This document shows, one piece after another, positions 5,642 to 53,116 of a DNA stretch of 64,000 nucleotides. A program made the position numbers and the translations under genes. How positions within the stretch are numbered: position 1 is the stretch's first letter; every line of letters starts with the position of its first letter. A model generated the notes under the pieces. It was given only the letters and a program-made list of their open reading frames with translations. It was not told the DNA's origin and did not search any database. Source of the stretch: Euglena gracilis (lineage: Eukaryota); the NCBI GenBank assembly GCA_039621445.1, contig CP154954.1:2914001-2978000 (forward strand), given 5' to 3'.

Positions 5642-5689
5642 GCTGTGCCCAGCGTGTCGGCTTCCACAGAAACCCCAGATGTACGCCTG

Positions 5690-9078: not shown

Positions 9079-9622
9079 GGTGTGTGACCTGAGGCAAGGC
9101 GCCGTTTCAAAAAGGGGGGGAATGTGACCAGTGACTGAACTGCACGTGCAACAACTGAATTCAGCACATTGAAATGCCTTCTAACCTACGGCAAGCAATC
9201 CGCGCAAATTATGACAAAAAATCATCCGACTTAGGCATTTTCAGGCAAAAAATGGAAAAAGTGTGAAACGTTCTGACGGGACGCACAAAATGGATTATTC
9301 TGGTCCGTAACAACGGGGGGTATGGATATGCTACGTTTTCGTAATCTTTCATGGCGTATCTGTGTCAAAAACTGCCGAACACAAACCGGGGGTGACACAT
9401 CACGCATTCGGGTCGCGAAACAGTTAACACACTGGCGGTTTACTGTTGGACATCCGTAGGCCTGCTTTTTTGGAAATCCAGAAGGTGTCTAGAGGGGAGT
9501 TGTCAACTTTTTTCTTTTGGCGAACATGCACCTGGTTATGGCGCATCGAATGATCCATAAAATAAAGTGTGGTGTGACTTGTATCAAAAGTTACTAAACC
9601 GTCGCCTCATCAGCAAATCCGC

Positions 9623-10690
9623 TCAGTCGGACCCCTCGAAGGGGTCCGCCGGGACGTACACACGAGCCGCCCTCGGCGGCACCGTGTCCCGACTGCTGGT
9701 GGCCGCCCCACGCCCTGCGGGGTCCGCCGGTACCCGCCCGCCCGCCCGCGGAGGTGACTCGTCGCCCGCTGGTGATTCGAATCGCGACCGTCGAGTCGGT
9801 CGCTCAGGCAGGGACCCCTCGGACGAGGACTCGGCAGCCACGGACAACGGCAGATTCGCGGTGCGCCTCCAGCGGGCGTGCGCTGATCTCCGAGACCAGC
9901 TCCAGGAACGCCGGCAGGTCGCTCCGCACCAGCCGTGCGGACACCCGGTGGATGCGGCCCAGCAGCTGCTCCAGCGACGGGTACCCCAGGTACTCCGGGA
10001 TGGCGTCCACCGCCGTCCGCATCATGGCCATCACGCAGCAGTCGTGGGTGCGGATCACCATCCGGGGGTTCGACGTCATGGCCCTCTTCCAGAAGTTGTC
10101 GAACCACAGGACGCAGCTCCGCCCCTCCGACTGCTGCCACAGGTCCTCCAGCCGCTAACAGGCCCGCTGTCGCCGCCACTGCCGGTTCCACATCGGCTCC
10201 TCCGGCAGGATCCCACTGGGCCGCAGCAGCCGGCTGGCCGCCCGGTGCCTGGCCAGCAGCGCCTCGTGCTCCTCCGCCACCACCCGCTGCGCCGACCGCG
10301 GGCAGGCGTGCTGCCGCAGCGCCCGGTACACCGCCCAGGCGTCCTTGAGCAGCAGCTCAATCCGCGGCCGCCGCGGCTCCCGGGCCAGCTCCTCCAGCAG
10401 CGCCGCGCCCCCCTCCGTCCGCAGCGGCACCCGGGTGTGGGCCACCTGCACCACCAGGGTCTGCAGCGGGTGGCCGCGCTGCACCACCGCCGCCACAAAC
10501 TCCTCGTAGCTGGTGGCGAAGTGGGCCTTCACCAGCTGGCCCAGCACCTTCCTGGCCTCCGCGGCCAAGGCGGCCTCCTCGCTGTAGCCCTCGTAGCCAC
10601 GGCGGCGGGAGTGGGTGCTGCTGGCCTGCAAGGACTCCATTCAGTCCTCCCCAGGTCTGCCGGCACGCCGCCTTTTCACCACCACCTCAA
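9623..10690 (-). pseudogene. 'CVLWFDNFWK' family protein, putative DDE-type transposase fragment
   Basis: ORFs 10640-10155 and 10079-9804 are in the same frame, separated by one TAG (10157-10155). Very GC-rich. Aligns by eye with 30330-32380 and 42631-42950 (ELLLKDAWAVYR..HACP vs ELLLRDA*VLYRTVRHRDCP; CVLWFDNFWK vs CVLWYDNFWK). Confidence 0.65.
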
Positions 10691-15028: not shown

Positions 15029-15216
<188 letters not shown>

Positions 15217-29912: not shown

Positions 29913-30893
29913 GGAGGGGATGCCCCCCAGAACAAAAATGGCATCACTACTCTGTGCAAGGTCAGGCTCAAATGTCTTTTTGCGTTCCATTTTTTTGAGA
30001 TCTTCCGTTCATTTCCATGTGTCTTGCCATGCTCTGGCAAATTGGTCACCTGAGCCTCCACAGAGCCTCTGAGGAGCCGCTGTGGAGGCTGGTTGTTTGG
30101 AGCCTTTGCGGAGCCTCTGTGGAGACTGGTTACCCAGATCCTCCACGGAGCCTCCACGGGGGCTCCGCGGAGGCAACCCAAAAAAAATGCACGATTCAGA
30201 TTTTGTTGTCGAGCCATCCCTTACTCGAACTGTCTAACCCTAACCCAAACATTCATTGAAACATTAGAATCACAATTGCGCAAACGGTGCCTGTGAAGGC
30301 TTGTAAAGACAATTTGCGCGAACCAGTTGTTACCACAAAGCTTGCACATCCGCAATTCTGCCAGCAATCCACTGAAAATTATTGTTTTTCACGTCATATG
30401 GCATGAGAAAGAAGAACCAAAGTCCTGAGTGTACTGATTGGGAACGTCCACGCTTTGCCATCCAGCGGGGACACCGCGATGTCGGTGATGCTGCACGAAG
30501 TCCGCCAGGACTGAGTGCACTGGGCGCCTGGCCACCAGCGGGATGTAGCACAGCACCCTCTCCACGGAAGGGCACTTTGGGTACTCCGGGATGGCCACCA
30601 GGGTCGTCTGCACGATGGCCACGATGGCTATGGCGGTGCAGTCCTGGGTGCGGACAGGTTCATAAGGGGTGGAGCGCATCTGGTGCTTCCAGAAGTTGTC
30701 GTACCACAGCACGCAGACTTTCCCCGCCCTCTGCTGCCGCAGTTCCACCCGACACCCGTCCACTCGCTCCTCGTGACGACTGATTTCAGTCGGGTTCAGT
30801 CAGGTGGATGCTGCCGGGACTCAGGTGTCTGCTGAATGACTCCTTCATCTGCATTGGACGTCCTCAGGGGCCACGATGGGCTGTTGCGCCATA

Positions 30894-32077
30894 CAGGTTG
30901 CCAACACAAAAAACATACCCGCCAAAAAGCAAATTCCCCTTTCCATTTTGTCCCCAGTTGCTCTCATGCCCCCAAAACTGAGCACTGCCGACAGAGCGGC
31001 TTTGCGCAAGCGCGTGGAGACGTATCTCTCTTTTGTTCCACCCTGGTTGCTCAATAAGATTGCAAAATCACGAGAAAATATCCAAAGCTACAGTGCAAGG
31101 TATATACCCGGCTTGTACACAATTCACACCAGCCACTTATCCCAGGTATGGCATCCAGATTCAAAGAACGTTGCACGCTTGATCGCAAAGTTGGATCGGG
31201 ATCCAATCAGCAAAAGGCAAAGAAATATTCAGCACGGTGTGCGACGTTTGCAATAAATTATATTCCATTCCGAAATTCCCACAGGTTTCGAAGAGGTATA
31301 TTAAAAATGGCAATGAAAAACCCTTTTTGGAGTTGCAAACAAATCGCCGACGAGCATTTCCTCCGAGTTAGCACCGCATTGTTAGCCCGCCCAGCAGGGG
31401 CAGTGGTTAAGGCGTGTTTGTCAATCGTTATGCTTATGCTTTTTTTGTGTGAATTTCAGATACCGCCAATTCAGAATTCATCCGTACAATCCTACGGAAG
31501 GCGGGCTTGTGCTGCCAAACCGCAGCAAGGAAGCCATTACTGTCCTCGGTGAACAAGCGGAAACGCCTGGTGTTTGCACGCCAATATCCATTGTGCAGGA
31601 CTGCGGGCTACCGCTTCCAGCAGGACGGGGCTTCTCCCCACCGTGCGCGGAGTACCACAGCGTGGATGAGGTGGAAGCGAGTGCTGCACTTCAACGGAGG
31701 GGTTTGGCCACCACAGTCGCCAGACCTTAACCCCATTGAACATTTGTGGCCCATGGTGCTGCACAAGTTGCGTGGGCATGCGTTTGCGGGCAAAGACCAG
31801 TTGTGGTTGGCTTTGCAAGCTGCCTTCGCAGAAATCTCCCCCGAACAGGTCAAAGCATTTTATGACAGCATGCCTAACTGCATGCGGGCTGTCATTGCGG
31901 CTCGCGGTGGACAAACCCGCTACTGACCTTCCCATACCCCGCCCTTTTGCATGACGGTTGCATTCGCGGCAAATCCAGCGCTTGATTGGCCGCATTGCTG
32001 CTGATAGCTTTACTCACCAGATGGGGGGTATGTTTTTTGTGCTGTCAGGGGGGTATGTTTTTTGTGTTGGCAACCTG
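30894..32077 (+). mobile_element. Tc1/mariner-superfamily DNA transposon (DD37E spacing), internal-deletion derivative
   Basis: 27-bp perfect TIR CAGGTTGCCAACACAAAAAACATACCC...GGGTATGTTTTTTGTGTTGGCAACCTG; TA TSD (30892-93, 32078-79); transposase remnants inside. Confidence 0.95.
30966..31926 (+). pseudogene. Tc1-like transposase, intron-containing, first catalytic D region deleted
   Basis: Removing GT-AG introns 31022-31058, 31100-31145 and 31237-31284 gives MPPKL...ISKATVQGMASRFKERCTLDRKVGSG...NPFWSCKQIA. Then IRTILRKAGL..AARKPLL..RLVFARQY is joined directly to FQQDGASPH...WPPQSPDLNPIEHLW...ARGGQTRY*. Confidence 0.88.
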
Positions 32078-34622
32078 TAGGGCAGTCGCGGTGGCGCACT
32101 GTATGGTACAGGGGCATCCCGCAGCAGCAACTCTTGGAATGTTTGTGCTATGTTCTTTTGTGCAATTGCGCAAAGGAACATGGATTTTATCGCATCAGAG
32201 AACTTTTGCCGGCACAACAGAATAAGAGCGTTCGATTTGGCACCATCTCAGCTTAATTTGCATAACGGGACAATTACTCAGGATGCGTGGAAAAAATCTG
32301 CTCATTACAACCCAAAGAATGATTTTAACAACAGAAGCTCGGGCATTTTCTGTTGACAGAACAGTGGTGGAGTACACGTGCTAGGTTTCAAAGGATGGTG
32401 CATTTCCGCAGTGGTTCAGTTGCAAATGAATAGTCAGTCTGTTCAACCCGACTTTTAGCGGAAGAAGAAACCCGTCGCTGTTCTGATCACATCCCGTAAT
32501 TGTGAGGCCAATCAAACAGAAAGTTGTTTTTTTCTTGCTCTTCATCCACACACTATGCATGAGCTCTTTTGATCCTCCTGCAACAGACACAGAATCCATG
32601 CCAGTGTAAGGTCCAAATCGTGACACCGTCAAAATCGCCCACCCCCTGCCATGGCTCCCAGCTCCCTGGGGGAAGGTGCAAGCTTCCTTCAAAAATCTTG
32701 GAAGGGTCATTCGTCAGTGAAGAGGCAATACACAACACAGCAACAGAAAATAGACGCCGACACACCAGCGTTGAGGCAGAAGTTGACGCCATCCCAGCTC
32801 AAGCAAGGTCAGGTATTTTGATATGTCTACATTATACTGCTGCTCCGACAGCGCCTGGGTTAAGTAGTTCTGCAATAAAATTGGCTAGGTGGTCCTGACC
32901 TCCCCCACCGGTACAGGTAAGCGCTTTTTTTTTTATTACAGGACGAACCCCCCCCCCCTTCACCAGAGTTGGTAAACAGAAGCCTGCTAGGCATCCTCCC
33001 CCCAGAGTTTGGTAAAAAGGAGCTTGGAATTATTTCCCATCTTTCCCCCTAATTTTTCCCTGTGGGGATGTAGCTTACGCCTGGTCCAGTGGAGAGCTGC
33101 TGTGCAATGTCCAACCCCTCTCCGACGCGCGGCTCATTCACGTGCATATGATGCCTGTCATGGCCCTGTTATATGTTTTCTCTCCCAGAGAACAGAGTGC
33201 GATTGGTGGGCAACCTAACATGCCTTTTGAGCGCTCTCCTTCCTTGCAACCAGACCTGACTTGGAAATGGGGGTGGTGGTGGTGCTCTGGTTAGTGGCGG
33301 TTTGCAGAGGCTGGAAAAAAATGTCCGTGAGGTTTTTCCAACCCATTCTGGCTGGAAGGTGTAAAGTTGCAGCAAGGGCATGATGCAGAATTTCCAAAGT
33401 TTTGGAGCTTGGTTGCAGAAAGACGTTTCCAGAAATGGGTCGAAGAATTGGCCGTCACCCCCCTCTCAGTAAGCTGTCATGACCGAGAACCTGTCAGCAG
33501 CCCACCAGCGAAACTGCCAGGTCCCCAGGTACTGGCCAACATGTCGAGGTCAAAATTCAATGAAGTTCCTTTGAAAGACCCTGAGGTTGGAATCCCCCCC
33601 AGGGAGCCTGTTCTCTTCCCTCCATATTCGCCAACCTGTCTTCATTGGGGGCACCTGTCCTCCTCTCTCCCCGCACCTTGTCTCCCAACGATTGTTTGAA
33701 AATTTTCATTTTTTTCTTGAAGAAGCAGATTCCTGAGTTGAAAAAAACTCTGAACATTGCTTTCAAGCTTATCCCAAACTTGCGAAAAATTGTGTTGTCG
33801 GATTTTCTGTCTGCCGGCGGTCGAATTTTTTTTGACTTTTTTTCCCTGTCACCCAGCCCCACCCCTCCCCCCATTCCGTATTTGCTGACCTGCCTCCTAC
33901 ATCGATGCTTGCTGATTTGTCTGGGGACATTTTCCGGAGTGGGGAGGCTGGGTAAAGATGGAACCAAGGGGCAGGAAAGGATGGCGTGAGATCCTCTCCC
34001 AACGCTTTCCAGCTTGCTGAGGCTTCCTCAGGCTGTCTGCGAGGTGACCCACCCCAGAGTGTATTTTCCCAACTGGTTATTTTCATGTGAGGGAGGTGGC
34101 TGACCGATGTGATGATTTTTTTTTTAAATCTCTGAGCGACTGACTCGTTTGTCACCCTCTCTCATGCTGAAGTGGTGGCTTCTGTCTGCAGGAATTATTT
34201 TTTTTATCCCATTGTTCTCTCCCCTGTGCTGAAGTGGTGGTTTCTGTTTTGGCGAATTTTTTTTAATCCATTGTTTTCGTTCGAACTGAAAATGTCAGGA
34301 CATTAACGTGAGGCAGAAAAATGACTGCTGAAAATCTGGACAACTAGATGTTCCTCCAGCCAAATTTATTACGCAAGCATTCATACACTGGCGCCTTATT
34401 GGCCGCATTTCACCCGTATTTTGGCGTGTCAAGTTCAAGGGGGAGAAGGTGCAACCGAGGGGGGGGGTGCCTCCTTGGATAGCACCCAGAATTCCGCTCC
34501 CCACCCCTTGGTTTGTGAGAATCAGGCTCCTGGGCACCACATTAGGCACACTGACGGGTTTGCTACAGCACCACTCAGAAAATGTGCACATTTTGGCACT
34601 GAACTTCCAACTTCCTCCAGGT

Positions 34623-34879
34623 CAGGGGTTTTTTTTGTCGTGGACCCCCGGGAGGGGTAGGGTGGGTGGGTCCGGCTGAGCCCCCCCCCCCCCCCGGGTC
34701 CCTAGGGGGGAGTGGGATATACTTTTCGGTGCCGAAGGCGCCGAGAGTTTTTGAAAAGGTGCTATTTTTGGAATTTCCCGCAATTTTTGAGTGGCTCCGA
34801 ACCCCCCCCCCCCCGGGGGGGGCCAGGGGGTGGGTGGGCGCGGGGGACCCCCCTCCCCCCGGTCTTAAAAAAACCTCTG
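34623..34879 (+). mobile_element. hAT-type MITE (257 bp)
   Basis: Ends CAGGGGTTTTTTT...AAAAAAACCTCTG; TSD CTCCAGGT/CTCCAAGT (CTCCAGGT in unit B, where the left half is deleted). Confidence 0.8.
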
Positions 34880-35045
34880 CTCCAAGTTCATTGGCCCAGT
34901 CCGGATTGCCCGGCACCCAACACCACCCCCTCCCCCCCAAACCCGGGTCAAGCATCTCCCTGCCCTACGGTCTGGAGCCTGCCCTGCGCAGCCAAACCCA
35001 GGCTTCAGTGGCCTGGTTAGGATTAACTGGCGTGGGGTTCCTGCC

Positions 35046-36413
35046 CAGACATTCATTTAGTGTGGTACACCAAGGTTGCCATTTTGTGGTTCACTGTGGA
35101 CACCAAAAATTTTTGTGGTTCACGTATGGACACCAAAAATTTTTTTGTGGTTCACCTGTGGACACCAAAAAATTTTTTGCGGTTCACATGTGGACACCAA
35201 GAAAATTTCCCACCGCCTGCTGACATTTGTATTGTTACCTTTCTCCTCAACAGCGGTGAAGCAATCTTCTTTGAACATGTTTGCCCAACAGCGTTCGCAC
35301 CATTTTGAGAGGAAAAGGAGCAATTAATTAACCCATCAAAAATTCACCCCCACCATCAAAAACAATGAAGTTTATCGGTGAACTTCACCGGTGAACTACA
35401 CCGCCGAAAGTACCCCCCCCCCCTGGTGAACATTGGAAGTTCGGCAGCCACCCCCCCCCCCTGGTGGTCGGACCCCCTCGGCATGGAAAAATGGGGACCC
35501 CCCTGGTCAGCCAAGCCCCTCGGCACGGCATGCCGAACCATACCAATGAATTTGGTATGGAATCCTTTGGGAAATTCCGGCTGTCCGCCACGGTGGACCC
35601 CCCCCCTGGGGGACTGACCCCCTCGGCACGGCAAAATGGGACCCCCCCCCTGGTTGCCGAGGGTCCTCGTCAGACGTGCCGAACCTCCATTCACCGGTGA
35701 AGTCCACAGCCGCCCCCCCCCGTACTGCCTAACCTCCCATGTTTTGCTGCCCGAAGGGCGGCGAGACAGTAGCGATATCCAAAAGCAAAAATAGCCCAAA
35801 AGTTCAATGAAAGTTGAATTCTTAAGTTTTTGACCATTCTTGTGATGAACTTCACTGGTGGGTTCGCCGTGAAGTTCACCGTTGGGTTCGGCAGAGGGGG
35901 GGGTGGAGGGGGTCCGGCCCTGGTGAATTTTCAAACGGTGAATTTCAGCTAGGGATCTGGAGGCTGACCTTCTCCAAAGAAAAACAAAACCTCTTTTCCC
36001 ATATCGAAAAGAATATGGGCATAAGTTTCGACCCGCATGTCAAAATAACTGAGATTGGTTGAATTATGATCCAAACATTGGAATGTGGTGTTCGGTTTGC
36101 CATCAATTTGGCAGCATCCAAAGGTTTCAGGTGCTGAAAAAAAGGGAATGTGCTTGCGATGCCAACTATTCAATACAGGACTCGCACTGTCACAACACAT
36201 GAGAATTGAATTTTTTTTCCATCCTCAATCAAGTTCTGGCGCAACAAAAATTTTTGTGGACACCAAATTTTTTTTGTGGTTCACATGTGGACACCAAAAA
36301 ATATTTTGTGGTTCACCTGTGGACACCAAAAATTTTTTTGTGGTACACCTGTGGACACCAAAAAAAATTTGTGGTTCACACGACTTATGTGAACCACACT
36401 AAATGAATGTCTG
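35046..36413 (+). mobile_element. Non-autonomous hAT element (1368 bp) with ~30-bp subterminal tandem repeats
   Basis: 21-bp perfect TIR CAGACATTCATTTAGTGTGGT...ACCACACTAAATGAATGTCTG; perfect 8-bp TSD TTCCTGCC; empty site TTCCCGCC at 45263-45270; GTGGTTCACCTGTGGACACCAAAAATTTTT arrays at both ends. Confidence 0.95.
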
Positions 36414-36665
36414 TTCCTGCCTAGCGGGCACTTCGCAGCCCTCTCGCCTGCAGTCACCACACACACAGTCGCACCGTTTGGCCCCTTTTGGCCAATTTTG
36501 AATTGGTCAACTCACACCACAAGCAGAGAGAGAAGACGGCAGGGTTGCTTCGCCGGATTGCAAAATGCTGTTTCCTGGCCCGAAATCCCCCCCCCTTGTG
36601 TGAATGGCACCGCACCCGCGGTGGTTTCAATACTTTTGCTGCACCAACTGTCCCCTTGTCTGGAC

Positions 36666-36976
36666 CAGGGCGGTCTTTAAGGGACAGAAAAAAATTTTTT
36701 TTTCCTTAAGGACCGCCCCCCTTTCGGCCAAAGGGCCGACCAAGGGCCGGACTGGGACTTGAACGGGGTCCAAAATTAAAAAGTCCAAAAAACACAGTTT
36801 TTGATGATTTGGGTGGATGGGCGATGGTCCAAGGATGCCAAGAACCAGTTTTTTTCCCTGGTGTCGACCTGTTCTCACCGAATAATGCCAAATTTATTTG
36901 CCCATTTTCCTGTATATTTTTATTGAGTCTGCTGGGACAGCGGAGTTTTTTTTTTATTTGCTTAAGGACCGCCCTG
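36666..36976 (+). mobile_element. hAT-type MITE (311 bp), same family as 5322-5641
   Basis: TIR CAGGGCGGTCTTTAAG...CTTAAGGACCGCCCTG; perfect 8-bp TSD GTCTGGAC; absent from unit B (~45499). Confidence 0.93.
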
Positions 36977-37646
36977 GTCTGGACTGGAGACAGCGCTTGG
37001 TTTTCCTGGATTTGCTCTTTCGGGTTCCATTCACAGGGGTGAGGCTGGACGGGGAAAGGAATGGTGTTTTGTTGTCTGCTTTAATTCTTCAGATATGAAA
37101 TATTTGATTCTGGACGATGTATTGTAATGAATGGACGATGCATTCTCTGATGAAACTCTGAATAATGTATTCTGAAAAGTGGTGTCACCAGAATTTCGGC
37201 GAAAATCAAAATTCTTTTCCAGATGTTCACCCAAAGAAACATCAGCCACCCGTTCTGAAGGCTTTCCCCAACTCTTCAGCAATTATGAAAAATGTTTTGC
37301 TAATACTTGTGATGTTCAATTTCTACGTTCGTGCGCTGTTCTTTTTTGCCTCCATGCAGGCGGACCAGCATGCAACCTACAGTTGGCATGCTGGGGTGGG
37401 CAGGACCACCACTGAACACTGCTCAAGCGGAAGCATTGCTCGCTTCAATCAGAAACGATTCCTCCAAATGTCCTCAGAATTAAGTCACCAGTTTTTTTGG
37501 AGAGAGCTAATTCTTTTCGCACCGACCTACCCCCATGCTTTTTTAAGTTTTCTGGTGATGTGATTTATTTGTAATTGGAAAAGTAATTTTTCCTTCTTGG
37601 TGATGATGTGAAACGAAGAGAATCGTTTTTCAACGGCGTAAAAGCA

Positions 37647-37897
37647 TAGGGATCCTTCCACTTCCTAAAAAGGAAATTAATGAAATTCATGGAGGATCAC
37701 GGAAAAAAGGCGCGAGGCCATTTTTACAGAAATCACAAAAATTCACGGATATTCACGGATGAGGCAGAGGGATATGATTTGATATGGAATATGGTTTTTG
37801 ACTTTTTAAAAAAAATAAAAAAGGAAATAGACGGAAAATCACGGAAAATCACGGATACATTTTGGCCTCGGCCAGCACGGAAACCGGAGAAACCCTG
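37647..37897 (+). mobile_element. Old hAT-like MITE with AATCACGGA subterminal repeats (also in unit B ~46157-46414)
   Basis: Ends (C/T)AGGGATCC...GAAACCCTG, flanks AAAAGCA/AAAGGCA; repeated ATCACGGA/TTCACGGA motifs. Confidence 0.5.
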
Positions 37898-39789
37898 AAA
37901 GGCAATGCACAGGCACTGGGGTGGCAAATTGCAAATTTTGCATATGAATATGAGACAAGCCAACCCTGTGCTGCCACTGTGCCAACCCATGTGGTTCTGT
38001 CTCTCTTGCCTCTCCCCCACCAGTATTGGCTTTTTTTTTTGACCCATTAGCGCCCCGCCCTGTGCCACGCGTGGCCTGTCCACCGTGCCAGGACAGCCGG
38101 TCTTGCTGAGAACCCCAGCCACTCCTCGAATCCGCAGGGGAAATTTCCCTTTCCGAGGATTCTGGGCAGCAATGTTGGCTCCCTTCTGCGATTACTTCCC
38201 TTTGGCCTCTCCCCATCCGATGGACGGTGTGGGCCACACTTGTTATTTCACACCAACATAAAACAGGGCACCACTGTGTCGACACGGTCGTCAGGACACC
38301 GCAGCAAGGTCAGGCATTTAGTATCGGTAGTAGTAGGGCCTTGCGATACCTTGGGTTTTGTGTCCGTCGCAAAGTTGCTCATCAGAATTGTGCAAAATCA
38401 GCAGATTAGTTTTTTTTTTGGAGGAAAGGAGAAGGTGGATCGGTCGTCCACGCCACCAGGCAGATGCTGATAGTGTCCATGGAAAAATCAATGTGAGGTT
38501 GTTTCTGGGGACCTCCGCAACTCCTCGGGGACATTGACGCCCCCCCCCCAAATGAATTGTCAAAAATCTATTTCCGGCCCGACTGTATTGACCCTGAGTG
38601 CACCTCAGTCTTGGGGGGGGTTCCAGTGACCCAAACTTTCTCAGACACCATCACCTGCATCAAACCCTACAGGATACCCAGAGATCCCACCAAACAGGAC
38701 AGATTCTCCCTACTGGCTTTTCACGTCAGTTTTCTTTTTTTTTTGACAAAATGTTTCCTCCAAAAAGTCTGATGGACACCAATAACCCGAAATGCTGTAA
38801 TTTTTTGTTGTCCTCTGAAATAGAAGCCATTTGACACCAAATTACTTTTCCAAAGCGCATTGAATAGATCCATGGATGTTTTTTGGATACTGCCAAGGTG
38901 CCAAAAAAGATTGGCCCAGAAAGTTTACAGGGGGTCAGTCCAAACCCCATCCTCCCAAGGGGTAGGTGTCTAATCCATGCCAGTCACCTGGCCTGGGCAA
39001 TTGGGACGACGGTTTGTTGGCGTGGCTGGCCCCACATTATCTTCCCCTCGCCCTCGGCGGCACCCCAAAACCAAACCTCTCCCACCCCCCTCCCCTGGTG
39101 TCTGCTACAGCTGCCTGTGGCCTGCAAGGTGCTGCCTTCATGTTTGACCGACGATGACAGCACCAAAGCAGTGACATTGGCCAGGCGTCTTCGACGTTGG
39201 GCAGACAGTGTGGTGAGGCAGGCTTACTGAGCTTCAAAGTGAGTGGCCCTTTGTGCAGAATGTGGTGAGACCACGTACACCTCCAGGCGGATTGCCTCCC
39301 AAAAAACTGATTGAAACATTCACAATTTTGCACATTTATTGCTTATTATGGGTTGTTGTTGGAGATAGGTATTAATGCAGGGGGGGGGAAATGCAACTTG
39401 CATAATTTGCATTTTTTTGCATAATCGGCTTTTCCCGAAATTTGCATTTTTTTGCATTTTTTTGCATTTTTTTGCATAAAATATTTTGTCCTGGAAAATT
39501 TTTTTTTGTTGTTGGTCGCCATGGTCCGTGGTCCCTCTGCAGTTGCCTGGGGTCTTTGATACTTTCACCCTATTAAAAGGCAGCTTTGCAGAGGAGTGGA
39601 TGTTTTCCGAGCTTGTTTTTGTCATTTCAGCTTGCATCATGGCCGACACTCAAGTGGAAGCAATTCTGGAAGGAGGTTTGGTGGACGAGGGTGAAGTCCC
39701 CCCTGAAGAAGAAGAAGAAGAAGAAGAGGAAGATTCACGTCAAAAGAAGAGGAAGTTCAATTACGGAGCGAAGTCAACTCCAAGCTCCC

Positions 39790-39849
39790 GTACATATTCC
39801 GGCTCCAAAAAACGTGTGGAAAATTTGGGTGGAGCCAGAATATGCTGCT
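39790..39849 (+). other. Predicted intermediate/non-conventional intron (GT...CT, 60 nt)
   Basis: Stem CATATTCCGGCTCC (39793-39806) / GGAGCCAGAATATG (39831-39844); +4..+6 CAT pairs with -8..-6 ATG; removal gives TPSSRCKQF. Confidence 0.75.
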
Positions 39850-41113
39850 GTTGCAAGCAATTCCCATTTGGTATTTTTGAAGTCCGAGGTGAGTCAATGT
39901 GGTGTGTGGCTTGCCAGAAGCCCATTGACCACCGCCGGAAGAGTGTTGCAAATCAACACGTGAAGCAAGCTGGCCATGTTGAATTGGCAAAGAAGAAGGC
40001 AACAAGACCAAAAGCTCCCTATGTATTTTTTTTTGTGTCTGACGACCGCTTCCTCACTTTCAGATTGCCACCCCAACGGCGGAGGTACAAGATGAAGCCT
40101 CGTCCACACAGAATCTGAATCCAAAAGTGCCTGAACGTGCAAAGGTGCGTTTTCCACATTCCATTCCAGGTAGATAATTTGTTTTTTTTTTAACAGGTTC
40201 AAGCTGATTTGAAAAAGTTGCTTACAGCAAGAACGGAAATCAACGATGTTCACGATGACCTTTGTGCTGCATTCCTAGCAGCAGGTATACTCTCCATGTT
40301 CGTAAATGTCCTGGAATGCCTCCTTTTTCTGGTAGGCATACCTTTGGAGAAGATCGCGCACCCCAGCCTGAGGGGTTTCTTTGGAAAGGCAACGAAGTTT
40401 TCAGGGTGTTATCCCAAGGACCAGAAGGACATGAAGCCTTCGGTGGAATGCGTCTACAAGGTGTTATGTTGCCCTCTCCCCCTTGTACTCTTTGACTTGT
40501 CTTTATTGGAAGTTGGTTGCATTGTTTGTGTTTCGGTTTCCGATATAAATTTTCAGTTCATGATCATTACTGTTTCCCGCACAGAGGCACGTTGCGGAGT
40601 TGCGGCGTCGTCTGGCGAACCAGGACGTGGCCGTCAGCTTCGATGAGACGACGGACAGCCGCGGACAGTCGGTGCTGCACATGATTGTCGCTTGCTGTCA
40701 AAGCTTGCAAGGGAAGGGGCCGTTTTCTCGCCACGAGTGGAGGCTTTGCTAGGAAGACTGAAAGATGGAACACCTCTGCGATCCACTTTGTATTTGGCTG
40801 CAAAAAGAGGGGCAAGGTATTGTGACACCGTCATGGACAGGTGGCCAAAGCAATGGCAATTTTATCGAGAAATTCGAATTCTCAATCCTCGGAATCTTCC
40901 GGACATGTCCCAAGATCCTGCACAATACCCCATGCTTTCGTTTCCTATGAATGATGCAGAATTTCAAGGGGATTGGCAGCGGTATTGCCGCGTGGAGCAA
41001 GTGTTCCCCTCAGATTCCGTTTCGCTTATGCAGTATTGGGCGAAGCACAGTGGTGCCCTCGCCCAAGTTGCCAAGTTTTTACTGACCATTCCCACCACCT
41101 CTGCTGACGTTGA

Positions 41114-41179
41114 AAGCACACACTTCTGCATGTGCGGAATCCAAATGTTGTGCTATAGAATGCAGAAGGGTGTGCCGCC
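41114..41179 (+). other. Predicted euglenid-type non-conventional intron (AA...CC, 66 nt)
   Basis: Stem GCACACACTTCTGCAT (41116-41131) / ATGCAGAAGGGTGTGC (41160-41175); +4..+6 CAC pairs with -8..-6 GTG; removal restores the hAT motif SADVE|RSFS. Confidence 0.88.
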
Positions 41180-41888
41180 ACGTTCGTTCAGCCTTGCTGG
41201 GTGTGTTGATACCAAATTGCGTTCCACGTTGTGTAATGAAACGCGACGTGCCGCCGCTTTGTTGATGTTCAATGGTGACCTTGAGGGACGATTTGCGTAG
41301 ATTAAACAAATCATGTTGATTTTGAAAGCTTCAGTGCTTGTTGTTGTCTCCTTGGGGGTCTTCTTTGTGAATCATTGACGGGCACGCCGGCATTGTCACA
41401 TGTTTACAGATTTAGGCAGCAAAATTCTGGTGTATTCCAGCCTTTTTTCAACAGTTTTTTTGCAAGTTGCATTTTTTTGCATTTTTTGCATTTTTTTTTG
41501 CATTTTTTTGCATTTTTTTGACTTGCATAATTTGAAGGGCCCAGTTGCATTTTTTCCCCCCCTGATTAATGTTTGGGTGTTGGTTCGGGTTTGGGTTACC
41601 CCCCCCCCAATGTCCACCCTTGATTTTTTTATTTGGGTGGGATCCAGGTATTTTCGAATGTTGAACCCCAGGGGGGAGAGTGGATGCTTCATCTAAGGTT
41701 GTCGCAAAAAAAAACAGGTGGTTATTTGCATTTGCAAACTTGACGTCCCCATACGTCTCTGACCTCAAAGTGCAATCTTGCCCGGGGCCATTTGAATTTG
41801 ACCCTATTTTTGGATATGACCTCCCGAGAATAGTGAATGTAAGTTAGGCACCCCAACATTGGCCACCCAATCCTCGTTTTCAAATGTG

Positions 41889-42267
41889 CAGGGGGGGAAC
41901 GCGTTTTTTTTTGCATTTTTTTGTTTGAGTTTGGCAAAATTTGTGTTTTTTTTGCTTTTTTTTCGTTTATGCTGGAATTTTTTTGGACAATGAAAAATTC
42001 CTCATTTTGCCCCCAATTTTCCCAATTTTGCAATTTTTTGCCAACAAATTGCATATCTTCATGCGAAATGAAAAAGTTGCCCTGACGGAGCTGAAATTTA
42101 AGCCCCTCAGGCAGAAATTGCATTTCGGAGGGGGAGAGCCGTATTCCTGGAGCTCTGCAAAGGATTTTGCATGCAATTATCGTTTTTTTTGCCTTTTTTT
42201 CACGTTTATTTTTCATTTATTTGCATCGCGTTTTTTGAGGGTCCATGTTGCGGTTATCCCCTCCCTG
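41889..42267 (+). mobile_element. hAT-type MITE (379 bp); internally deleted copy at 48447-48610
   Basis: Ends CAGGGGGGGAA...TCCCCTCCCTG; TSD CAAATGTG/CAATTGTG. Confidence 0.7.
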
Positions 42268-42630
42268 CAATTGTGGCCCGCCCCAAGTGCTGATCCCCCC
42301 AGGTCCTAAAAGAATTTGCAATCCCCGCATTACATATTTTCCATACTTTTCTTATTTTGCATATCTGCTCGGAGCTTTGCATATACCTCGGAGCTTTTTT
42401 CTCCTGGTATTTACACAAAAAATCTGTTGCATTTCAACAGATTGTCTGGGGATTCTGAAGTTGATTTTTTTTTGAATGGCCTCTGCAGAGGCTCAGGTTA
42501 CCAGGCTCCGCGCAGGCTCCAAGGAGGCTTGGGTAACCAATTTTGCCACAGAACGTGGGAGAAGTGACGGATAAGATCATGGTGCGAAACGGCAGACGGA
42601 AACAAAACTTATTGCCCCACAACCGCACAG

Positions 42631-45600
42631 TAGGGCAGTCGCGGTGGCGCACTGTACGGTACAGGACCTAGGCATCCCGCAGCAGCAACTCTTGGAATGT
42701 TTGTGCTATGTTCTTTTGTGCAATTGCGCAAAGGAACGTGGATTTTATCGCATCAGAGAACTTTTGCCGGCACAACAGAATAAGAGCGTTCGATTTGGCA
42801 CCATCTCAGCTTAATTTGCATAACGGGACAATTACTCAGGATGCGTGGAAAAAATCTGCTCGTTGCAACCCCAAAGAATGATTTTAACAACAGACGCTCG
42901 AGCATTTTCTGTTGACAGAACAGTGGTGGAGTACACGTGCCAGGTTTCAAAGGGTGCCGGATGGTTTGCCGTCAAAATTGGACGTGGCACCAGGTGAGTC
43001 GTGCAGCATTTCCGCAGTGGTTCAGTTGCAAATGAATAGTCAGTCTGTTCAACCCGGCTTTTAGCGGAAGAAGAAACCCGTCGCTGTTCTGATCGCATCC
43101 CGTAATTGTGAGGCCAATGAAACAGAAAGTTGTTTTTTTCTTGCTCTTCATCCACACACTATGCATGAGCTCTTTTGATCCTCCTGCAACAGACACAGAA
43201 TCCATGCCAGTGTAAGGTCCAAATCGTCAAAATCGCCCACCCCCTGCCATGGCTCCCAGCTCCCTGGGGGAAGTCTCAAGCTTCCTTCAAAAATCTTGGA
43301 AGGGTCATTCGTCAATGAAGAGGCAATACACAACACAGCAACAGAAAATAGACGCCGACACACCAGCGTTGAGGCAGAAGTTGACGCCATCCCAACTCAA
43401 GCAAGGTCAGGTATTTTGATATGTCTACATTATACTGCTGCTCCGACAGCGCCTGGGTTAAGTAGTTCTGCAATAAAATTGGCTAGGTGGTCCTGACCTC
43501 CCCCACCGGTACAGGTAAGCGCTTTTTTTTTATTACAGGACGAACCCCCCCCTCCCCCAGAGTTGGTAAACAGAAGCCTGCTAGGCATCCCCTCCCCCAG
43601 AGTTTGGTAAAAAGAAGCTTGTAATTATTTCCCATCTTTCCCCCTAATTTTTCCCTGTGGGGATGTAGCTTATGCCTGGTCCAGTGGAGAGCTGCTGTGC
43701 AATGTTCAACCCCTCTCCGACGCGCGGCTCATTCACGTGCATATGATGCCTGTCATGGCCCTGTTATATGTTTTCTCTCCCAGAGAACAGAGTGCGATTG
43801 GTGGGCAACCTGGCATGCCTTTTGAGCGCTCTCTTTCCTTGCAACCAGACCTGAAATGGGGGTGGCGGTGGTGGTGCTCTGGTTAGTGGCGGTTTTGCAG
43901 AAAAAATGTCCGTGAGGTTTTTTTACCAACCCATTCTGGGTGGAAGGTGTAAAGTTGGAGGGCATCATGCAGAATTTCCAAAGTTTTGGAGCTTGGTTGC
44001 AGAAAGGTGTTTCCAGAAATGGGTCGAAGAATTGGCCGTCACCCCCCTCTCAGTAAGCTGTCATGACCAAGAACCTGTCAGCAGCCCACCAGCGAAACTG
44101 CCAGGTCCCCAGGTACTGGCCAACATGTCGAGGTCAAAATTCAATGTAGTTCCTTTGAAAAACTCTGAGGTTGGAACCCCCCCCCCCAGGGAGCCTGTTC
44201 TCTTCCCTCCATATTCGCCAACCTGTCTTCATTGGGGGCACCTCCTCCTCTCTCCCCGCACCTTGTCTCCCAACGATTGTTTGAAAATTTTCACTTTTTT
44301 CTTGAAGAAGCAGATTCCTGAGTTGAAAAAAACTCTGAACATTGCTTTCAAGCTTATCTCAAACTTGCGAAAAATTGCGTTGTCGGATTTTCTGTCTGCC
44401 GGCGGTCGAATTTTTTTTGACTTTTTTTCCCTGTCACCCAGCCCCACCCCCCCTCTCCGTATTTGCTGACCTGCCTCGTACATCGGCCTTGATTTGTCTG
44501 GGGACAGTTTCCGGAGTGGGGAGGCTGGGTAAAGGTGGAACCAAGGGGCAGGAAAGGATGGCGTGAGATCCTCTCCCAACGCTTTCCAGCTTGCTGAGGC
44601 TTCCTCAGGCTGTCTGCGAGGTGACCCACCCTGGGGTGTATTTTCCCAACTGGTTATTTTCATGTGAGGGAGGTGGCTGACCGATGTGATGATTTTTTTA
44701 AATCTCTGAGCGACTGACTCGTTTGTCACCCTCTCTCATGCTGAAGTGGTGGCTTCTGTCTGCAGGAATTTTTTTTATCCCATTGTTCTCTCCCCTGTGC
44801 TGAAGTGGTGGTTTCTGTTTTGGGGAATTTTTTTTTATCCATTGTTTTCGTTCGAACCGAAAATGTCAGGACATTAACGCGAGGCAGAAAAATGACTGCT
44901 GAAAATCTGGACAACTAGATGTTCCTCCAGCCAAATTTATTATCAGGCTCGATATTAAGGTGCAAGCATTCATACATTTTTTGAAAAGGTGCTATTTTTG
45001 GAATTTTCCCCGATTTTTGAGTGGCTCCGGAACCCCCCGGGGGGGGGGCCAGGGGGTGGGTGGGTGGGGGGGACCCCCTCCCCCCGGTCTTAAAAAAACC
45101 CCTGCTCCAGGTTCATTGGCCCAGTCCGGATTGCCCGGCACCCAACACCATCCCCTCCCCCCCAAACCCGGGTCAAGCACCTCCCTGCCATACGGTCTGG
45201 AGCCTGCCCTGCGCAGCCAAACCCAGGCTTCAGTGGCCTGGTTAGGATTAACTGGTGTGGGGTTCCCGCCTAGCGGGCACTTCGCAGCCCTCTCGCCTGC
45301 AGTCACCACACACACAGTCGCACCGTTTGGCCCCTTGGCCAATTTTGACTCGGTCAACTCACACCACAGGCAGAGAGAGAAGATGGCAGGGTTGCTTCGC
45401 TGGATTGCAAAATGCTGTTTCCTGGTCCGAAATTTCCCACCTTGTGTGAATGGCACCCGCGGTGGTTTCAATACTTTTGCTGCACCAACTGTCCCCTTGT
45501 GGAATGGAGACAGCGCTTGGTTTTCCTGGATTTGTTCTTTCGGGTTCCATTCACAGGGGTGAGGCTGGACGGGGAAAGTAATGGTGTTTTGTTGTCTGCT

Positions 45601-48600
45601 TTAATTCTTCGGATATGAAATATTTGATTCTGGACAATGTATTGTAATGAATGGACGATGTATTCTCTGATGAAACTCTGAACAATGTATTCTGAAAAGT
45701 GGTGTCACCAGAATTTCGGCGAAAATCAAAATTCTTTTCCAGATGTTCACCCAAAGAAACATCAGCCACCCGTTCTGAAGGCTTTCCCCAACTCTTCAGC
45801 AATTATGAAAAATGTTTGTGATGTTCAACTTCTACGTTCGTGCGCTGTTCTTTTTTGCCTCCATGCAGGCGGACCAGCATGCACCCTACAGTTGGCATGC
45901 TGGGGTGGGCAGGACCACCACTGTACGCTGCTCAAGCGGAAGCATTGCTTGCTTCAATCAGAAACGATTCCCCCAAATGTCCTCAGAATTAAGTCACCAG
46001 TTTTTTTGGAGGAAGCTAATTCTTTTTCGCACCGACCTACCCCCATGCTTTTTTTAAGTTTTCTGGTGCTGTGCTTTATTTGTAATTGGAAAAGTAATTT
46101 TTCCTTTTGGTGATGATGTGAAACGAAGAGAATCGTTTTTCAACGGCGTAAAAGCACAGGGATCCTTCCATTTCCTGAAAAGGAAATTAAATGAAATTCA
46201 TGGAGGATCACGGAAAAATGGCGCGAGGCCATTTTTACAGAATTCACAAAAATTCACGGATATTCACGGATGAGGCAGAGGGATATGATTTGATATGGAA
46301 TATGAATTTTGACTTTTTTTTAAAGTTCAAATTCAAAGTTTAAATTCACGGAAAATCACGGAAAATCACGGATACATTTTGGCCTCGATCAGCACGGAAA
46401 CCAGAGAAACCCTGAAAGGCAATGCACAGGCACTGGGGTGGCAAATTGCAAATTTTGCATATGAATATGAGGCAAGCCAACCCTGTGCTGCCACTGTGCC
46501 AACCCATGTGGTTCTGTCTCTCTTGCCCCCCCCCCCCCCCAGCATTGGCTTTTTTTTTGACCCATTAGCGCCCCGCCCTGTGCCACGCGTGGTCTGTCCA
46601 CCGTGCCAGACTTCCGGTCTTGCTGAAAACCCCAGCCACTCCTCGAATTCACAGGGGAAATTTCCCTTTCCGAGGATTCTGGGCAGCAATGTTGGCTCCC
46701 TTCTGCGATTACTTGCCTTTGGCCTCTCCCCATCCGATGGACAGTGTGGGCCACACTTGTTATTTCACACCAACATAAAACAGGGGACCACTGTGTCGAC
46801 ACGGTAGTCAGGCCACCGCAGCAAGGTCAGACATTAGTATCGGTAGCAGTAGGTCCTTGCGATACCTTGGGTTTGTGTCTGTCGCAAAGTTGAAGGGGGG
46901 GATCAAAAGCATCTCATCAGAATTGTGCAAAATCAGCAGGTCAGTTTTTTGGAGGAGAGGAGAAGGTGGATCGATCGTCCACGCCACCAGGCAGATGCTG
47001 CTAGTGTCTGTGGAAATCAATGTGAGGTTGTTTCTGGGGACCTCCGCAACTCCTCGGGGACATCGACCCCCTCCGAAATGAATTGTCTGAAACCTCTTTC
47101 CGGCCGGACTGTATTGACCCTGAGTGCACCTCAGTCTGGGGGGAGGTTCCAGTGACCCAAACAGGATTCTTTCTCAGACACCATCACCTGCATCAAATCC
47201 CACAGGATAACCAGAGATCCTACCAAACAGGACAGATTCTCCCTACTGGCTTTTCACAGCAATTTTCTTTGACAAAATGTTTCCTCCAAAAAGTCTGATG
47301 GACACCAATAACCCGAATTGCTATAATTTTTTGTTGTCCTCTGAATAGAAGCCATTTGACACCAAATTGTTTTTCCAAAGCGCATTGAATAGATCCATGA
47401 ATGTTTTTTGGATACTGCCAAGGTGCCAAAAAAGATTGGTCCAGACATTTTACAGGGGGTCAGTCCAAACCCCATCCTCTCAAGGGGGAGGTGGGTGAAT
47501 CCATGCCAGTCACCTGGCCTGGGCAACTGGGACGACGGTTTGTTGGCGTGGCTGGCCCCACATTACCTTCCCCTCGGTGGCACCCCCAAAACCAAACCTC
47601 TCCTCCCCCTCCCTGGTGTCCGCTACAGCTGCCTGTGGCCTGCAAAGTGCTGCCTTCTTGTTTGACCGATGAAGACAGCACGGCATTGGCCAGCCGTCTT
47701 CGACGTTGGGCAGATAGTGTGGTGAGGCAGGCTGACTGAGTGGCCTTTTGTGCGGAATGTGGTAAGACGAGGTACACCTCCAGGCGGATTGCCTCCCAAA
47801 AAACTGATTGAAACATTCACAATTTTGCACATTTATTGCTTATTATGGGTTGTTGTTGGAGATAGGTATTTATATTTGGGTGTTGGTTCGGGTTTGGGTT
47901 ACCCCCCCCCCAATGTCCACCCTTGATTTTTTATTTGGGTGGGATCCAGGTATTTTCGAATGTTGAACCCCAGGGGGGAGAGTGGATGCTTCAGGGGACT
48001 TCCCTCCCCGATCTTTAAAGAACGCGCGACATGACTCCCTCACCCGTACTCACGTTGCAAAATTTTGGTGTATCTCACAAATTTCCAGAAGTTTTTCTGT
48101 CGAGTTTGCCAAATTTTGGCATGCACAACCAGTTATGAGACGTTCACGTGTTAATTGTGAATAAGAATTCGGTTGAAAGCATTTGGGGCAGGGATTTAAA
48201 TACAGAAAAGGTCTTCATTTTCTGCATCTAAGGTTGTCGCAAAAAAAAAAACAGGGTTGTCCGGAGAATTGTCAATTGGTTATTTGCATTTGCAAATTTG
48301 ACGTCCCTATACGTCTCTGACCTCAAAGTGCAATCTTGCCCGGGGCCATTTGAATTTGACCCTATTTTTGGATATGACCCCCCGAGAATAGTGAATGTAA
48401 GTTAGGCGCCCCAACGTTGGCCACCCAATCCTCGTTTTCAAATGTGCAGGGGGGGAAGGCGTTTTGCATTTCGGGGGGAGCTCCGTAGCTCCGGAGCTCT
48501 GCAAAAATTTTTACATGCAATTATCGTTTTTTTTTGCATTTTTTTACGTTTATTTTTCATTTATTTGCATCGCGTTTTTTGAGGGTCCATGTTGCGTTTC

Positions 48601-49111: not shown

Positions 49112-49426
49112 CAGAATGCGTCCCTCACGAAATAACGCTTCCCTTTGTGTATTCCAGGGGACTCTCATTTTTTTTTCTATCAGGGATTTCTTAAAGACTG
49201 GTGGCAGGGGGTCTCCCCTCCCCCACCCCACCCCACCCCGGCGAAGGGGGTCTGGCAGACCCACTTTTTGGTCAATATTTGGGGTCAAACTTTTTCAGAA
49301 AATAGGTAAAAAGTAGATGAGAACCCCGCCTTCAGCAGGGTGTTCACTCAGCACGACCCCCCCCAAACGTACACATAGCATGATTCATTATGCAACACCA
49401 TACATTTTTTTGCACAATCAGAACAC

Positions 49427-50596
<1,170 letters not shown>

Positions 50597-52999: not shown

Positions 53000-53024
53000 A
53001 CACACACACACACACACACACACA

Positions 53025-53116
<92 letters not shown>

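What the first reader, a model, noticed from the sequence alone, without database searches (positions are those of the whole stretch)
9623..10690. Unassigned repeated gene family with a CVLW[FY]DNFWK motif: candidate novel transposase
Seen: three diverged minus-strand copies (9623-10690; 30330-32380; N-terminal part only at 42631-42950). Shared blocks are ELLL[KR]DA..Y....CP, AAS.LL.P.[GE]I, CVLW[FY]DNFWK, RT.DC and IPEY...PS[LV]E. The similarity is clearer in protein than in DNA, implying past selection. Inference only: a hydrophobic strand ending in DNF resembles the first catalytic Asp of RNase H-fold transposases such as Academ-like groups. I cannot assign it to a named family, and the C-terminal catalytic residues are not evident here.
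Basis: partly seen in the sequence, partly recalled or inferred. Interest (0 to 1): 0.75.

Follow-up and report, generated by a model that had tools for sequence, protein, structure and literature searches.

The report
Dead fragments of an orphan transposase-like family
The window holds two decayed, truncated copies, plus a local duplicate of part of one, of a large unnamed protein family from uncultured or poorly annotated eukaryotes whose full-length members carry an Asp/Asp/His/Glu pattern like that of cut-and-paste transposases, but neither the fold nor mobility could be tested.

Summary
The repeated coding similarity is real. Copy 1 (9807-10640, minus) and copy 2 (about 30392-30893 plus 32080-32133, minus) match each other at E 4e-21. 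They also match an independent family profile at E 1e-13 to 1e-22. Copy 3 is only a 20-34 residue block. It lies inside a 91-93% identical tandem duplication of the DNA next to copy 2, so it is not an independent member.

Both real copies are pseudogenes holding only the first third of a 700-890 aa protein. Copy 1 has one in-frame TAG. Copy 2 has three stops, frameshifts and a 1184-bp Tc1/mariner insertion.

A full library search found 662 relatives at the 50%-identity cluster level. None matched a family consistently in Pfam, NCBIfam, PHROGs, PDB sequences or the ESM Atlas.

Full-length relatives show ordered, near-invariant residues: W-x-D165-N, R-x-P-L-D251, L-V-D302, W-H338, E379 and EE..EA. 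This fits a DDE (RNase H-like) transposase of an unassigned superfamily.

The fold could not be tested, because every structure job failed or was not accepted. No inverted terminal repeats or target-site duplications were found around copy 1. Copy 1's codon bias (GC3 0.95) looks like a host gene, not like the resident transposons.

Verdict: real, unnamed, plausibly transposase-derived, unproven.

The parts
9807..10640 (-). Copy 1: a 278-codon frame (P0001) that covers only residues 16-243 (up to about 256) of the 842-aa relative P0003. It retains CVLWFDNFWK, IPEY, PSLE and RPLEAHR. GC by codon position is 0.73/0.49/0.95.
10155..10157 (-). In-frame TAG, the only disabling lesion inside copy 1. 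It lies at a position that varies among relatives.
9610..9806 (-). GC-rich tail (70-81% GC) downstream of copy 1's stop codon. It has no detectable similarity to any part of the family. It belongs to the same sharply bounded GC island.
30392..30893 (-). Copy 2, downstream part, covering family residues about 110-285. It holds CVLWYDNFWK, IPEY and PSVE. SPLDGK...W.FP.S is readable in a shifted frame. There are three in-frame stops. GC3 is 0.76.
30894..32077 (+). Tc1/mariner-like element inserted into copy 2. Its terminal inverted repeats start CAGGTTGCCAACAC. TA duplications lie at 30892-30893 and 32078-32079. The decayed transposase frame is at 31453-31923.
32080..32133 (-). Copy 2, upstream part (ELLLRDA..Y...HRDCP). 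It is collinear with the downstream part once the mariner is removed. One frameshift comes from a 5-nt deletion relative to copy 3.
42632..42691 (-). Copy 3: the block ELLLRDA*VLYRTVRHRDCP only, with TAG at the conserved Trp position. Homology to copy 2 ends at the same TA where the mariner sits in copy 2.
32078..49114 (.). Tandem segmental duplication. Unit A is 32078-42629 and carries a hAT-like insertion at 39378-41564 plus other indels. Unit B is 42630-49114. The units are 91-93% identical. This duplication is what produced copy 3.

Best explanation
The window contains pseudogene relics of a large, unnamed eukaryotic protein family whose members are about 700-890 aa.

Shown:
- There are two independent copies. 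Each is truncated to the N-terminal third.
- Copy 1 is young: one stop codon and codon bias still intact.
- Copy 2 is old: stops, frameshifts, a mariner insertion, and later a partial duplication as 'copy 3' by a local tandem duplication.

Inferred: the intact protein is a DDE-type (RNase H-like) nuclease/transposase of a superfamily not yet assigned.
- The hydrophobic stretch ending in W-x-D165-N-F would be strand beta-1 carrying the first catalytic Asp.
- L-L-V-D302 would be the end of beta-4 carrying the second Asp.
- G-[VI]-W-H338-x-Y-K would follow beta-5, in the place of the (C/D)xxH motif of hAT and MULE enzymes.
- The third carboxylate would be either the invariant E379 or a Glu of the EE..EA.LS helix, about 230 residues after D302. 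The second case would imply a hAT/RAG1-like insertion domain.

Such an enzyme would bind element ends through its N-terminal region, cut DNA with two metal ions held by the acidic triad, and reinsert the element. The window copies lack D302, H338 and every candidate Glu, so they could not catalyse anything.
For: Family size and orphan status:
- 662 representatives at E <= 1e-3, 333 at <= 1e-10 and 83 at <= 1e-30, from 1.84 billion cluster representatives.
- 0 of 32 long relatives (518-821 aa) match any Pfam family at E <= 0.01.
- No Pfam family is matched by more than 2 of 37 members at E <= 5.

Motif order and spacing:
- 40 of 48 relatives of at least 650 aa carry W.DN / P.D..R / hhD.N / WH.Y / EE..E[AS] in that order.
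- Spacing D1 to D2 is 131-146, D2 to His is 36-37, and D2 to EE is 198-331.

Conservation in 81 rows: D302, W337, H338 and E379 are each 81 of 81. D165 is 74 of 77. D251 is 78 of 80. R247 is 78 of 79. R254 is 79 of 80.

Secondary structure: a crude Chou-Fasman profile puts strands at 159-163 and 332-336, directly before D165 and H338. It also puts a strand at 185-192 and a helix over the EE..EA motif. Around D302 the prediction is mixed (E/H at 299-302).

The expected topology and residue placement are taken from passages of PMC5499845 read by term search.

Other points consistent with a mobile element:
- Several decayed copies lie in one 64-kb window, and one is hit by another transposon.
- Relatives appear as single uninterrupted reading frames on contigs of 2-11 kb.
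- No prokaryotic relative was found: 18 pattern matches, none confirmed.
Against: The fold is untested. No structure job returned a model: jobs failed, were not accepted, or the machine did not answer.

No sequence or profile link to any transposase model or solved transposase was found.

No terminal inverted repeats flank copy 1. The longest direct repeat between its flanks is 8 nt and of low complexity.

Outside the coding similarity, the flanks of copies 1 and 2 share no DNA.

Copy 1 has GC3 of 0.95. The window's genuine transposon reading frames have GC3 of 0.48-0.50 (hAT-like) and 0.64 (mariner). Copy 1's composition therefore looks like a strongly codon-biased cellular gene, or a recent arrival.

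No N-terminal zinc-finger pattern is present in any of 48 relatives. No DNA-binding domain was recognised, apart from a weak HTH_91 hit in 2 of 37 members at E 0.019.

There are four or more conserved acidic positions, so the choice of a 'triad' is an interpretation.
Confidence: 0.42

Rival explanations
1. The family is an ordinary, non-mobile, multi-copy cellular gene family of a marine protist lineage. It could be an enzyme of another kind or a long-domesticated transposase. On this reading the window copies are duplicated or retro-copied pseudogene fragments, not transposon relics.
For: - Copy 1 has a host-gene-like codon pattern (0.73/0.49/0.95). It forms a sharply bounded 1.1-kb GC island within flanks of 37-50% GC.
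- Two other open frames in the window also have high GC3, 0.77-0.80. The resident transposons do not.
- No terminal repeats or target duplications were found.
- Relatives come from 1-4 kb contigs that look like transcripts, each with one long reading frame.
- Retroposition is described as rampant in dinoflagellates (PMC11453091, abstract and passages). However, the window's organism was not identified.
Against: - Retro-copies are usually truncated at the 5' end. These copies keep the 5' part and lack the 3' two-thirds.
- There is no convincing poly-A tract, only AAAAGAAAAAA near 9515-9526.
- 662 clusters at the 50% level, with deep branches, is unusually diverse for a housekeeping family.
- The D/D/H/E motif pattern still needs an explanation.
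Confidence: 0.35
2. A short, N-terminal-only form of about 230-280 aa exists as a unit of its own. It could be a truncated paralogue, an internal-deletion derivative, or a repressor-like product. Copies 1 and 2 would descend from that short form rather than each having been cut down separately.
For: - Copy 1, copy 2 and the relative P0002 (231 aa on a 1208-nt contig) all end within about 70 residues of one another.
- They group together in the tree. Copy 1 and copy 2 are sisters with SH-aLRT 89, inside a clade with P0002 and P0004 at 95 (quick method, 122 columns).
- Copy 1's GC island (about 1.1 kb) is close in size to P0002's contig.
Against: - The same clade holds a full-length member, P0004 (799 aa).
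- P0002 diverges from the family before its stop codon, as a frameshifted fragment would.
- The end points of the three differ.
- The tree rests on few columns.
Confidence: 0.12
3. The family derives from an integrated virus or virus-like element of protists, and is not a cut-and-paste transposon.
For: Only indirect evidence: an orphan family, abundant in environmental contigs, with composition foreign to its surroundings.
Against: - No capsid, polymerase or other viral gene was seen among 95 window open frames scanned against Pfam.
- No recurrent PHROG hit was found.
- Viral structure libraries could not be used because no model was obtained.
Confidence: 0.05

Closest known systems
hAT / MULE-type DDE transposases (Hermes, Muta1)
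   Same: - A hydrophobic strand ends in the first Asp.
- A second Asp follows a short hydrophobic strand.
- A conserved His lies shortly after the next strand.
- Conserved Trp residues are present.
- There may be a long alpha-helical insertion before a Glu-bearing helix.

The comparison uses the topology and the (C/D)(2)H and Trp features quoted from PMC5499845 passages.
   Different: - The residue three positions before the His is Gly, not Cys or Asp. It is G335 in 126 of 141 rows.
- No Pfam hAT or MULE model matches.
- No BED, WRKY or other zinc finger is present.
- The D1 to D2 spacing, about 135 residues, is long.
- No 8-9 bp target duplications could be looked for.
CMC / Transib / RAG1 clade (CMCT)
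   Same: - A long spacing between the second Asp and a distal Glu motif, median 231 residues.
- An H(3-4)H pattern occurs in 31 of 40 full-length members between D302 and the EE motif.
   Different: The C(2)C motif that defines the clade (PMC12730594 passages) occurs in only 3 of 40 members. No Pfam CACTA-type model matches.
Kyakuja-Dileera-Zisupton (KDZ) transposases of fungi and animals
   Same: From my recollection only, and not from any call: KDZ motifs of the style D-G-N-F..R, Y-D-x-x-C, H...H and G-E..E-R.W-S resemble D-N-F..R, V-D-x-N, W-H.Y-K and E-E..E-A.L-S here, in both order and spacing.
   Different: - No Pfam hit of any kind appeared at E <= 5 in 37 members.
- No CxC zinc-chelating region is present.
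- The resemblance is unverified, because the defining papers were not held.
Academ superfamily
   Same: Both would be large DDE transposases without a Pfam home.

Membership tests
DDE (RNase H-like) cut-and-paste transposases in general | RNase H-like fold, beta1-beta2-beta3-alpha1-beta4-alpha2/3-beta5-alpha4, with D on beta1, D just after beta4 and E on alpha4 (PMC5499845 passages) | not testable with these tools
   No structure job returned a model (not accepted; no answer). Only a crude Chou-Fasman profile is available, and it is compatible with the fold. A coupling analysis on 106 sequences gave noise.
DDE (RNase H-like) cut-and-paste transposases in general | Three conserved acidic residues in the order D, D, E/D | tested here: met
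   D165 is present in 74 of 77 rows, D302 in 81 of 81 and E379 in 81 of 81. D251 is also conserved (78 of 80), as are E615/616/619 at 82-85%. Which of these are catalytic is inferred.
DDE (RNase H-like) cut-and-paste transposases in general | Terminal inverted repeats and target-site duplications around copies | tested here: inconclusive
   None were found around copy 1. Both window copies are truncated and decayed.
DDE (RNase H-like) cut-and-paste transposases in general | Several dispersed, diverged copies within one genome | tested here: met
   Two independent copies lie 20 kb apart and share 46% amino-acid identity. A third copy is a duplicated piece of copy 2. Only one 64-kb window was seen.
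CMC/Transib clade | [quoted passage not shown] | tested here: not met
   C(2)C occurs in 3 of 40 full-length members and H(3-4)H in 31 of 40.
hAT / MULE | (C/D)(2)H motif after the second D, plus sequence similarity to the family models | tested here: not met
   The motif here is G-[VI]-W-H, with Gly at position -3. No Pfam family matched at E <= 0.01 in 32 relatives, and none recurred at E <= 5 in 37 members.
Academ | Similarity to Academ transposase cores | not tested
Tc1/mariner (the element inserted in copy 2, not the family itself) | TA target duplication, terminal inverted repeats, HTH plus a DDE_3-type transposase | tested here: met
   The repeat arms are 44 nt and 89% complementary. 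TA flanks both ends. HTH_Tnp_Tc3_2 matched at 3.7e-9, above its cut-off. DDE_3 matched at 3e-6, with 27.6 bits against a cut-off of 28.6.

The most novel reading that the evidence does not exclude
The family is a previously undescribed superfamily of eukaryotic DDE cut-and-paste transposases, or a lineage-wide domesticated descendant of one. It would be highly diversified in marine protists and invisible to all current domain libraries. Its active site would be built from D165, D302, H338 and E379 or the EE..EA helix.
Probability: 0.33. Interest if true: 0.72.

Novelty: new variant of a known kind. Interest (0 to 1): 0.5.

Why it matters
A paper read here by term search cites 24 DNA-transposon superfamilies in Repbase (PMC12730594). 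A preprint that counts 19 DDE superfamilies calls haptophytes, stramenopiles, alveolates and rhizarians minor hosts (10.1101/2021.09.26.461848).

A family of at least 662 clusters at the 50%-identity level, with an invariant Asp/Asp/His/Glu signature and no domain assignment, would have two consequences if it proves to be a transposase. It would add a superfamily. It would also show that protist mobile elements are under-sampled by current libraries.

It would give annotators a profile to mask or name hundreds of 'hypothetical proteins' in marine transcriptomes.

If the family turns out to be a cellular family instead, it is still one of the larger unnamed enzyme-like families and would be worth a structure.

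The window copies themselves have no function.

Tried and rejected
Domain and sequence searches that found nothing:
- Pfam on P0001, P0002 and P0003 gave only a sub-threshold 'Frey' hit. Pfam on 32 relatives and on 37 alignment members gave nothing consistent.
- NCBIfam and PHROGs found nothing consistent.
- PDB sequence profiles built from A1 and A6 gave only coiled-coil noise.
- The ESM Atlas gave no usable hit, for the whole protein or for the core restricted to named clusters.
- The scan of prokaryotic genome contigs gave 18 pattern matches, none confirmed. The first attempt, with A1, was rejected for lacking a conserved stretch.

Searches of the window:
- Spliced-leader relic: 0 matches.
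- Rfam and tRNA scans: 0.
- Terminal repeats and target duplications around copy 1: none.
- Similarity of copy 1's GC-rich tail, of its upstream flank, or of the DNA downstream of copy 2 to any family member: none below E about 1.

Methods that failed:
- A mean-field coupling analysis on 106 core sequences was dominated by gap patterns and is uninformative.
- Structure prediction never returned a model, so fold search was never run.
- Complex prediction (two copies of the core) found the queue full and then was declared unavailable. Nothing was folded.

Literature:
- Eight word searches found no description of this family. An unnamed family cannot really be searched by words, so this is weak evidence that it is unpublished.
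- Yuan & Wessler 2011 and Iyer et al. 2014 were not held.

Considered and rejected:
- An alternative genetic code to explain the TAG. There is a single stop at a variable position, and copy 2 has three stops of its own.
- Introns to explain the missing two-thirds. No later exon lies anywhere in the 64 kb, and relatives are uninterrupted frames on contigs of up to 11 kb.

Full report
WHAT IS THERE.

On the minus strand, an open frame starts at ATG 10640 and ends at TGA 9804-9806. It has 278 codons and is broken by a single TAG at 10155-10157. This is copy 1.

Copy 1 sits in a sharply bounded island of 63-81% GC, at about 9610-10720, between flanks of 37-50% GC. Its GC content by codon position is 0.73/0.49/0.95.

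Copy 2 is the frame 30392-30799(-). It matches copy 1 at E 4e-21, with 38 of 85 residues identical.

I built a family HMM from 36 relatives without the window's own protein and ran it over 2225 six-frame segments. It found three segments and nothing else below E 0.6: 10158-10640 (3.9e-22), 9807-10154 (2.2e-21) and 30392-30799 (3.2e-13).

The DNA word for W[FY]DNFWK occurs twice without mismatch, at 10086-10106 and 30686-30706. It did not occur in any of 100 shuffles. The repeated coding similarity is therefore real and far beyond chance.

COPY 2 IS BROKEN BY A TRANSPOSON.

An inverted repeat of 44 nt (89% complementary) at 30888-30931 and 32040-32083 frames a 1184-bp element at 30894-32077, flanked by TA on both sides. 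Its decayed reading frame hits HTH_Tnp_Tc3_2 at 3.7e-9 and DDE_3 at 3e-6.

When that element and one TA are left out, a single frame aligns to relatives from 32108 across the junction to 30488 (P0164 residues 128-265, E 5.2e-21). It contains three in-frame stops. The ELLLRDA block lies in another frame.

By eye, the R-x-P-L-D and W-x-F-P-x-S motifs are readable in a further shifted frame, near 30400-30470.

COPY 3 IS NOT AN INDEPENDENT MEMBER.

Self-comparison of the window shows 32077-34371 matching 42630-44942 at 93%. The match continues, with indels, to 39376 matching 47873 at 91%, and then to 42633 matching 49114. This is a tandem duplication. Unit A is 32078-42629 and carries a hAT-like insertion at 39378-41564. 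Unit B is 42630-49114.

Copy 3 is the 20-residue block ELLLRDA*VLYRTVRHRDCP at 42632-42691. It is 70% identical to P0007 (E 0.01 against a set of 168 proteins) and scores E 0.043 by tblastn. The HMM did not detect it.

The left edge of the duplicated unit coincides exactly with the right end of the mariner in copy 2. I cannot explain this.

BOTH COPIES ARE TRUNCATED.

Against the 842-aa relative P0003, copy 1 covers residues 16-243 by tblastn. In the alignment it reaches RPLEAHR, which corresponds to R247-x-P-L-D251-x-x-R254. Copy 2 ends about 20-30 residues later.

No segment of the window matches any later part of the family.

Introns are an unlikely reason. Relatives are single uninterrupted frames on contigs of up to 10-11 kb.

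In a quick tree (112 rows, 122 columns) copy 1 and copy 2 are sisters with SH-aLRT 89. They sit inside a clade with P0002 (231 aa, also N-terminal only) and the full-length P0004, supported at 95.

THE FAMILY.

Word-indexed searches found only P0002 (55% identity) and P0003 (45%). A full HMMER pass with P0003 over 1.84 billion cluster representatives found 662 proteins at E <= 1e-3, 333 at <= 1e-10 and 83 at <= 1e-30. Only the best 150 were listed.

The members that I looked up come from ENA or JGI contigs of 1-11 kb.

Nothing recognises them:
- Pfam: 0 of 32 at E <= 0.01. No family is matched by more than 2 of 37 members at E <= 5.
- NCBIfam and PHROGs: no family is matched by more than one member.
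- PDB sequence profiles: only coiled-coil noise.
- ESM Atlas: no usable hit.
- Prokaryotic genomes: 18 pattern matches, none confirmed.

The organism of the window was not identified. Besides the two transposons, none of 95 further open frames has a Pfam hit that reaches its curated cut-off. There are no tRNA or Rfam hits. My impression that this is a marine protist with a large repeat-rich genome, perhaps a dinoflagellate, is a guess from composition and from the kind of contigs that hold the relatives.

WHAT THE FULL-LENGTH PROTEIN LOOKS LIKE.

The alignments show the following, in P0003 numbering:
- h-h-h-W163-x-D165-N166-[FYW]...R
- R247-x-P-L-D251-x-x-R254.......W262
- P-L-L-V-D302-x-N-x-x-Y-R-x-x-K-L-x-Y
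- G335-[VI]-W337-H338-x-Y-K
- E379
- V-R513-x-C-x-W517
- [FY]-x-E-E-x-x-E-A-x-L-S-R-L near residues 613-625

In 81 rows, D302, W337, H338 and E379 are invariant. D165 is present in 74 of 77 rows and D251 in 78 of 80.

40 of 48 relatives of at least 650 aa carry five of these motifs in order. The spacings are tight: D1 to D2 131-146, D2 to His 36-37, D2 to EE 198-331. The other eight are near-misses of my regular expressions.

A crude Chou-Fasman profile of the alignment puts strands at 159-163 and 332-336, directly before D165 and H338. It also puts a strand at 185-192 and a helix over the EE..EA motif. Around D302 it is mixed (E/H at 299-302).

This is the arrangement expected of an RNase H-like DDE enzyme: D on beta-1, D just after beta-4, E on alpha-4. 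MULE and hAT enzymes add a (C/D)(2)H motif and a key Trp. I take both points from passages of PMC5499845 read by term search.

WHAT SPEAKS AGAINST, OR IS MISSING.

- The fold was never tested. One job was interrupted. Two accepted jobs, with deep alignments, were interrupted.
- No terminal inverted repeats or target-site duplications flank copy 1.
- The two copies share no non-coding DNA.
- Copy 1's GC3 of 0.95 contrasts with 0.48-0.50 for the hAT-like frames and 0.64 for the mariner frame in the same window. Two other GC-rich open frames have GC3 of 0.77-0.80. This looks like a codon-biased cellular gene or a very recent arrival, not a long-resident transposon.
- The pairwise pN/pS ratio between the copies is about 1 (0.341 against 0.325 over 82 codons). 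The retained motifs are, however, exactly the family-wide conserved ones.

COMPARISON WITH KNOWN GROUPS.

[quoted passage not shown] Here C(2)C occurs in 3 of 40 members, so the criterion is not met.
- hAT/MULE: the His is present, but the residue three positions before it is Gly. No family model matches.
- KDZ: I recall motifs of similar style and spacing. This comes from memory only, and the defining papers were not held.

I therefore file the family under no superfamily.

VERDICT.

The objects in the window are dead, truncated pseudogenes. What is of interest is the family they reveal. It is large, unnamed and enzyme-like, and its D/D/H/E signature fits a DDE transposase best (my estimate is about 0.4).

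The strongest rival is a codon-biased cellular, or domesticated, family of the same ancestry or of another fold (about 0.35).

A structure prediction, together with the genomic context of intact copies, would settle the question.

Noticed in passing
30894-32077: A Tc1/mariner-like element of 1184 bp. Its terminal inverted repeats start CAGGTTGCCAACAC, and TA duplications lie on both sides. It has a decayed transposase frame at 31453-31923 (HTH_Tnp_Tc3_2 3.7e-9, DDE_3 3e-6). It is inserted inside copy 2.
   Followed up: yes
39378-41564 and 26398-26768: A hAT-like element of about 2.19 kb. Its inverted ends read CAGGGGGGGGGAAATGCAACT, and ATTAAT lies on both flanks. Its frames at 39480-41297 are in three pieces. 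The hAT dimerisation domain matches at 1.1e-3, below the cut-off. A 370-bp miniature copy with the same ends lies at 26398-26768 (19-nt arms, 95% complementary).
   Followed up: partly
32078-42629 and 42630-49114: A tandem segmental duplication at 91-93% identity. Its left edge is exactly the right end of the mariner in copy 2. A break induced at the transposon end is one possible cause, but this is unexplained.
   Followed up: partly
152-4000 and 58256-62711: A dispersed duplication of about 3.8 kb at 88-95% identity near the two ends of the window.
   Followed up: no
62585-63877 (+) and 8701-9078 (-): GC-rich open frames of 431 and 126 codons with a coding-like GC pattern (GC3 0.77 and 0.80). 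Neither has a Pfam match. They may be exons or further pseudogenes of other unnamed families.
   Followed up: partly
49441-50596; 53003-53795; 57952-58255; 15029-15216: Long microsatellites: (CAC)43, (CAA)263, (CACG)31, (CA)84, (AT)155 and (GATA)47.
   Followed up: no
8076-8698 and 22762-23358; 5321-5642 and 36665-36977; 5683-5844 and 17374-17540: Further short dispersed repeats at 73-85% identity. They are probably other unclassified repeat families.
   Followed up: no
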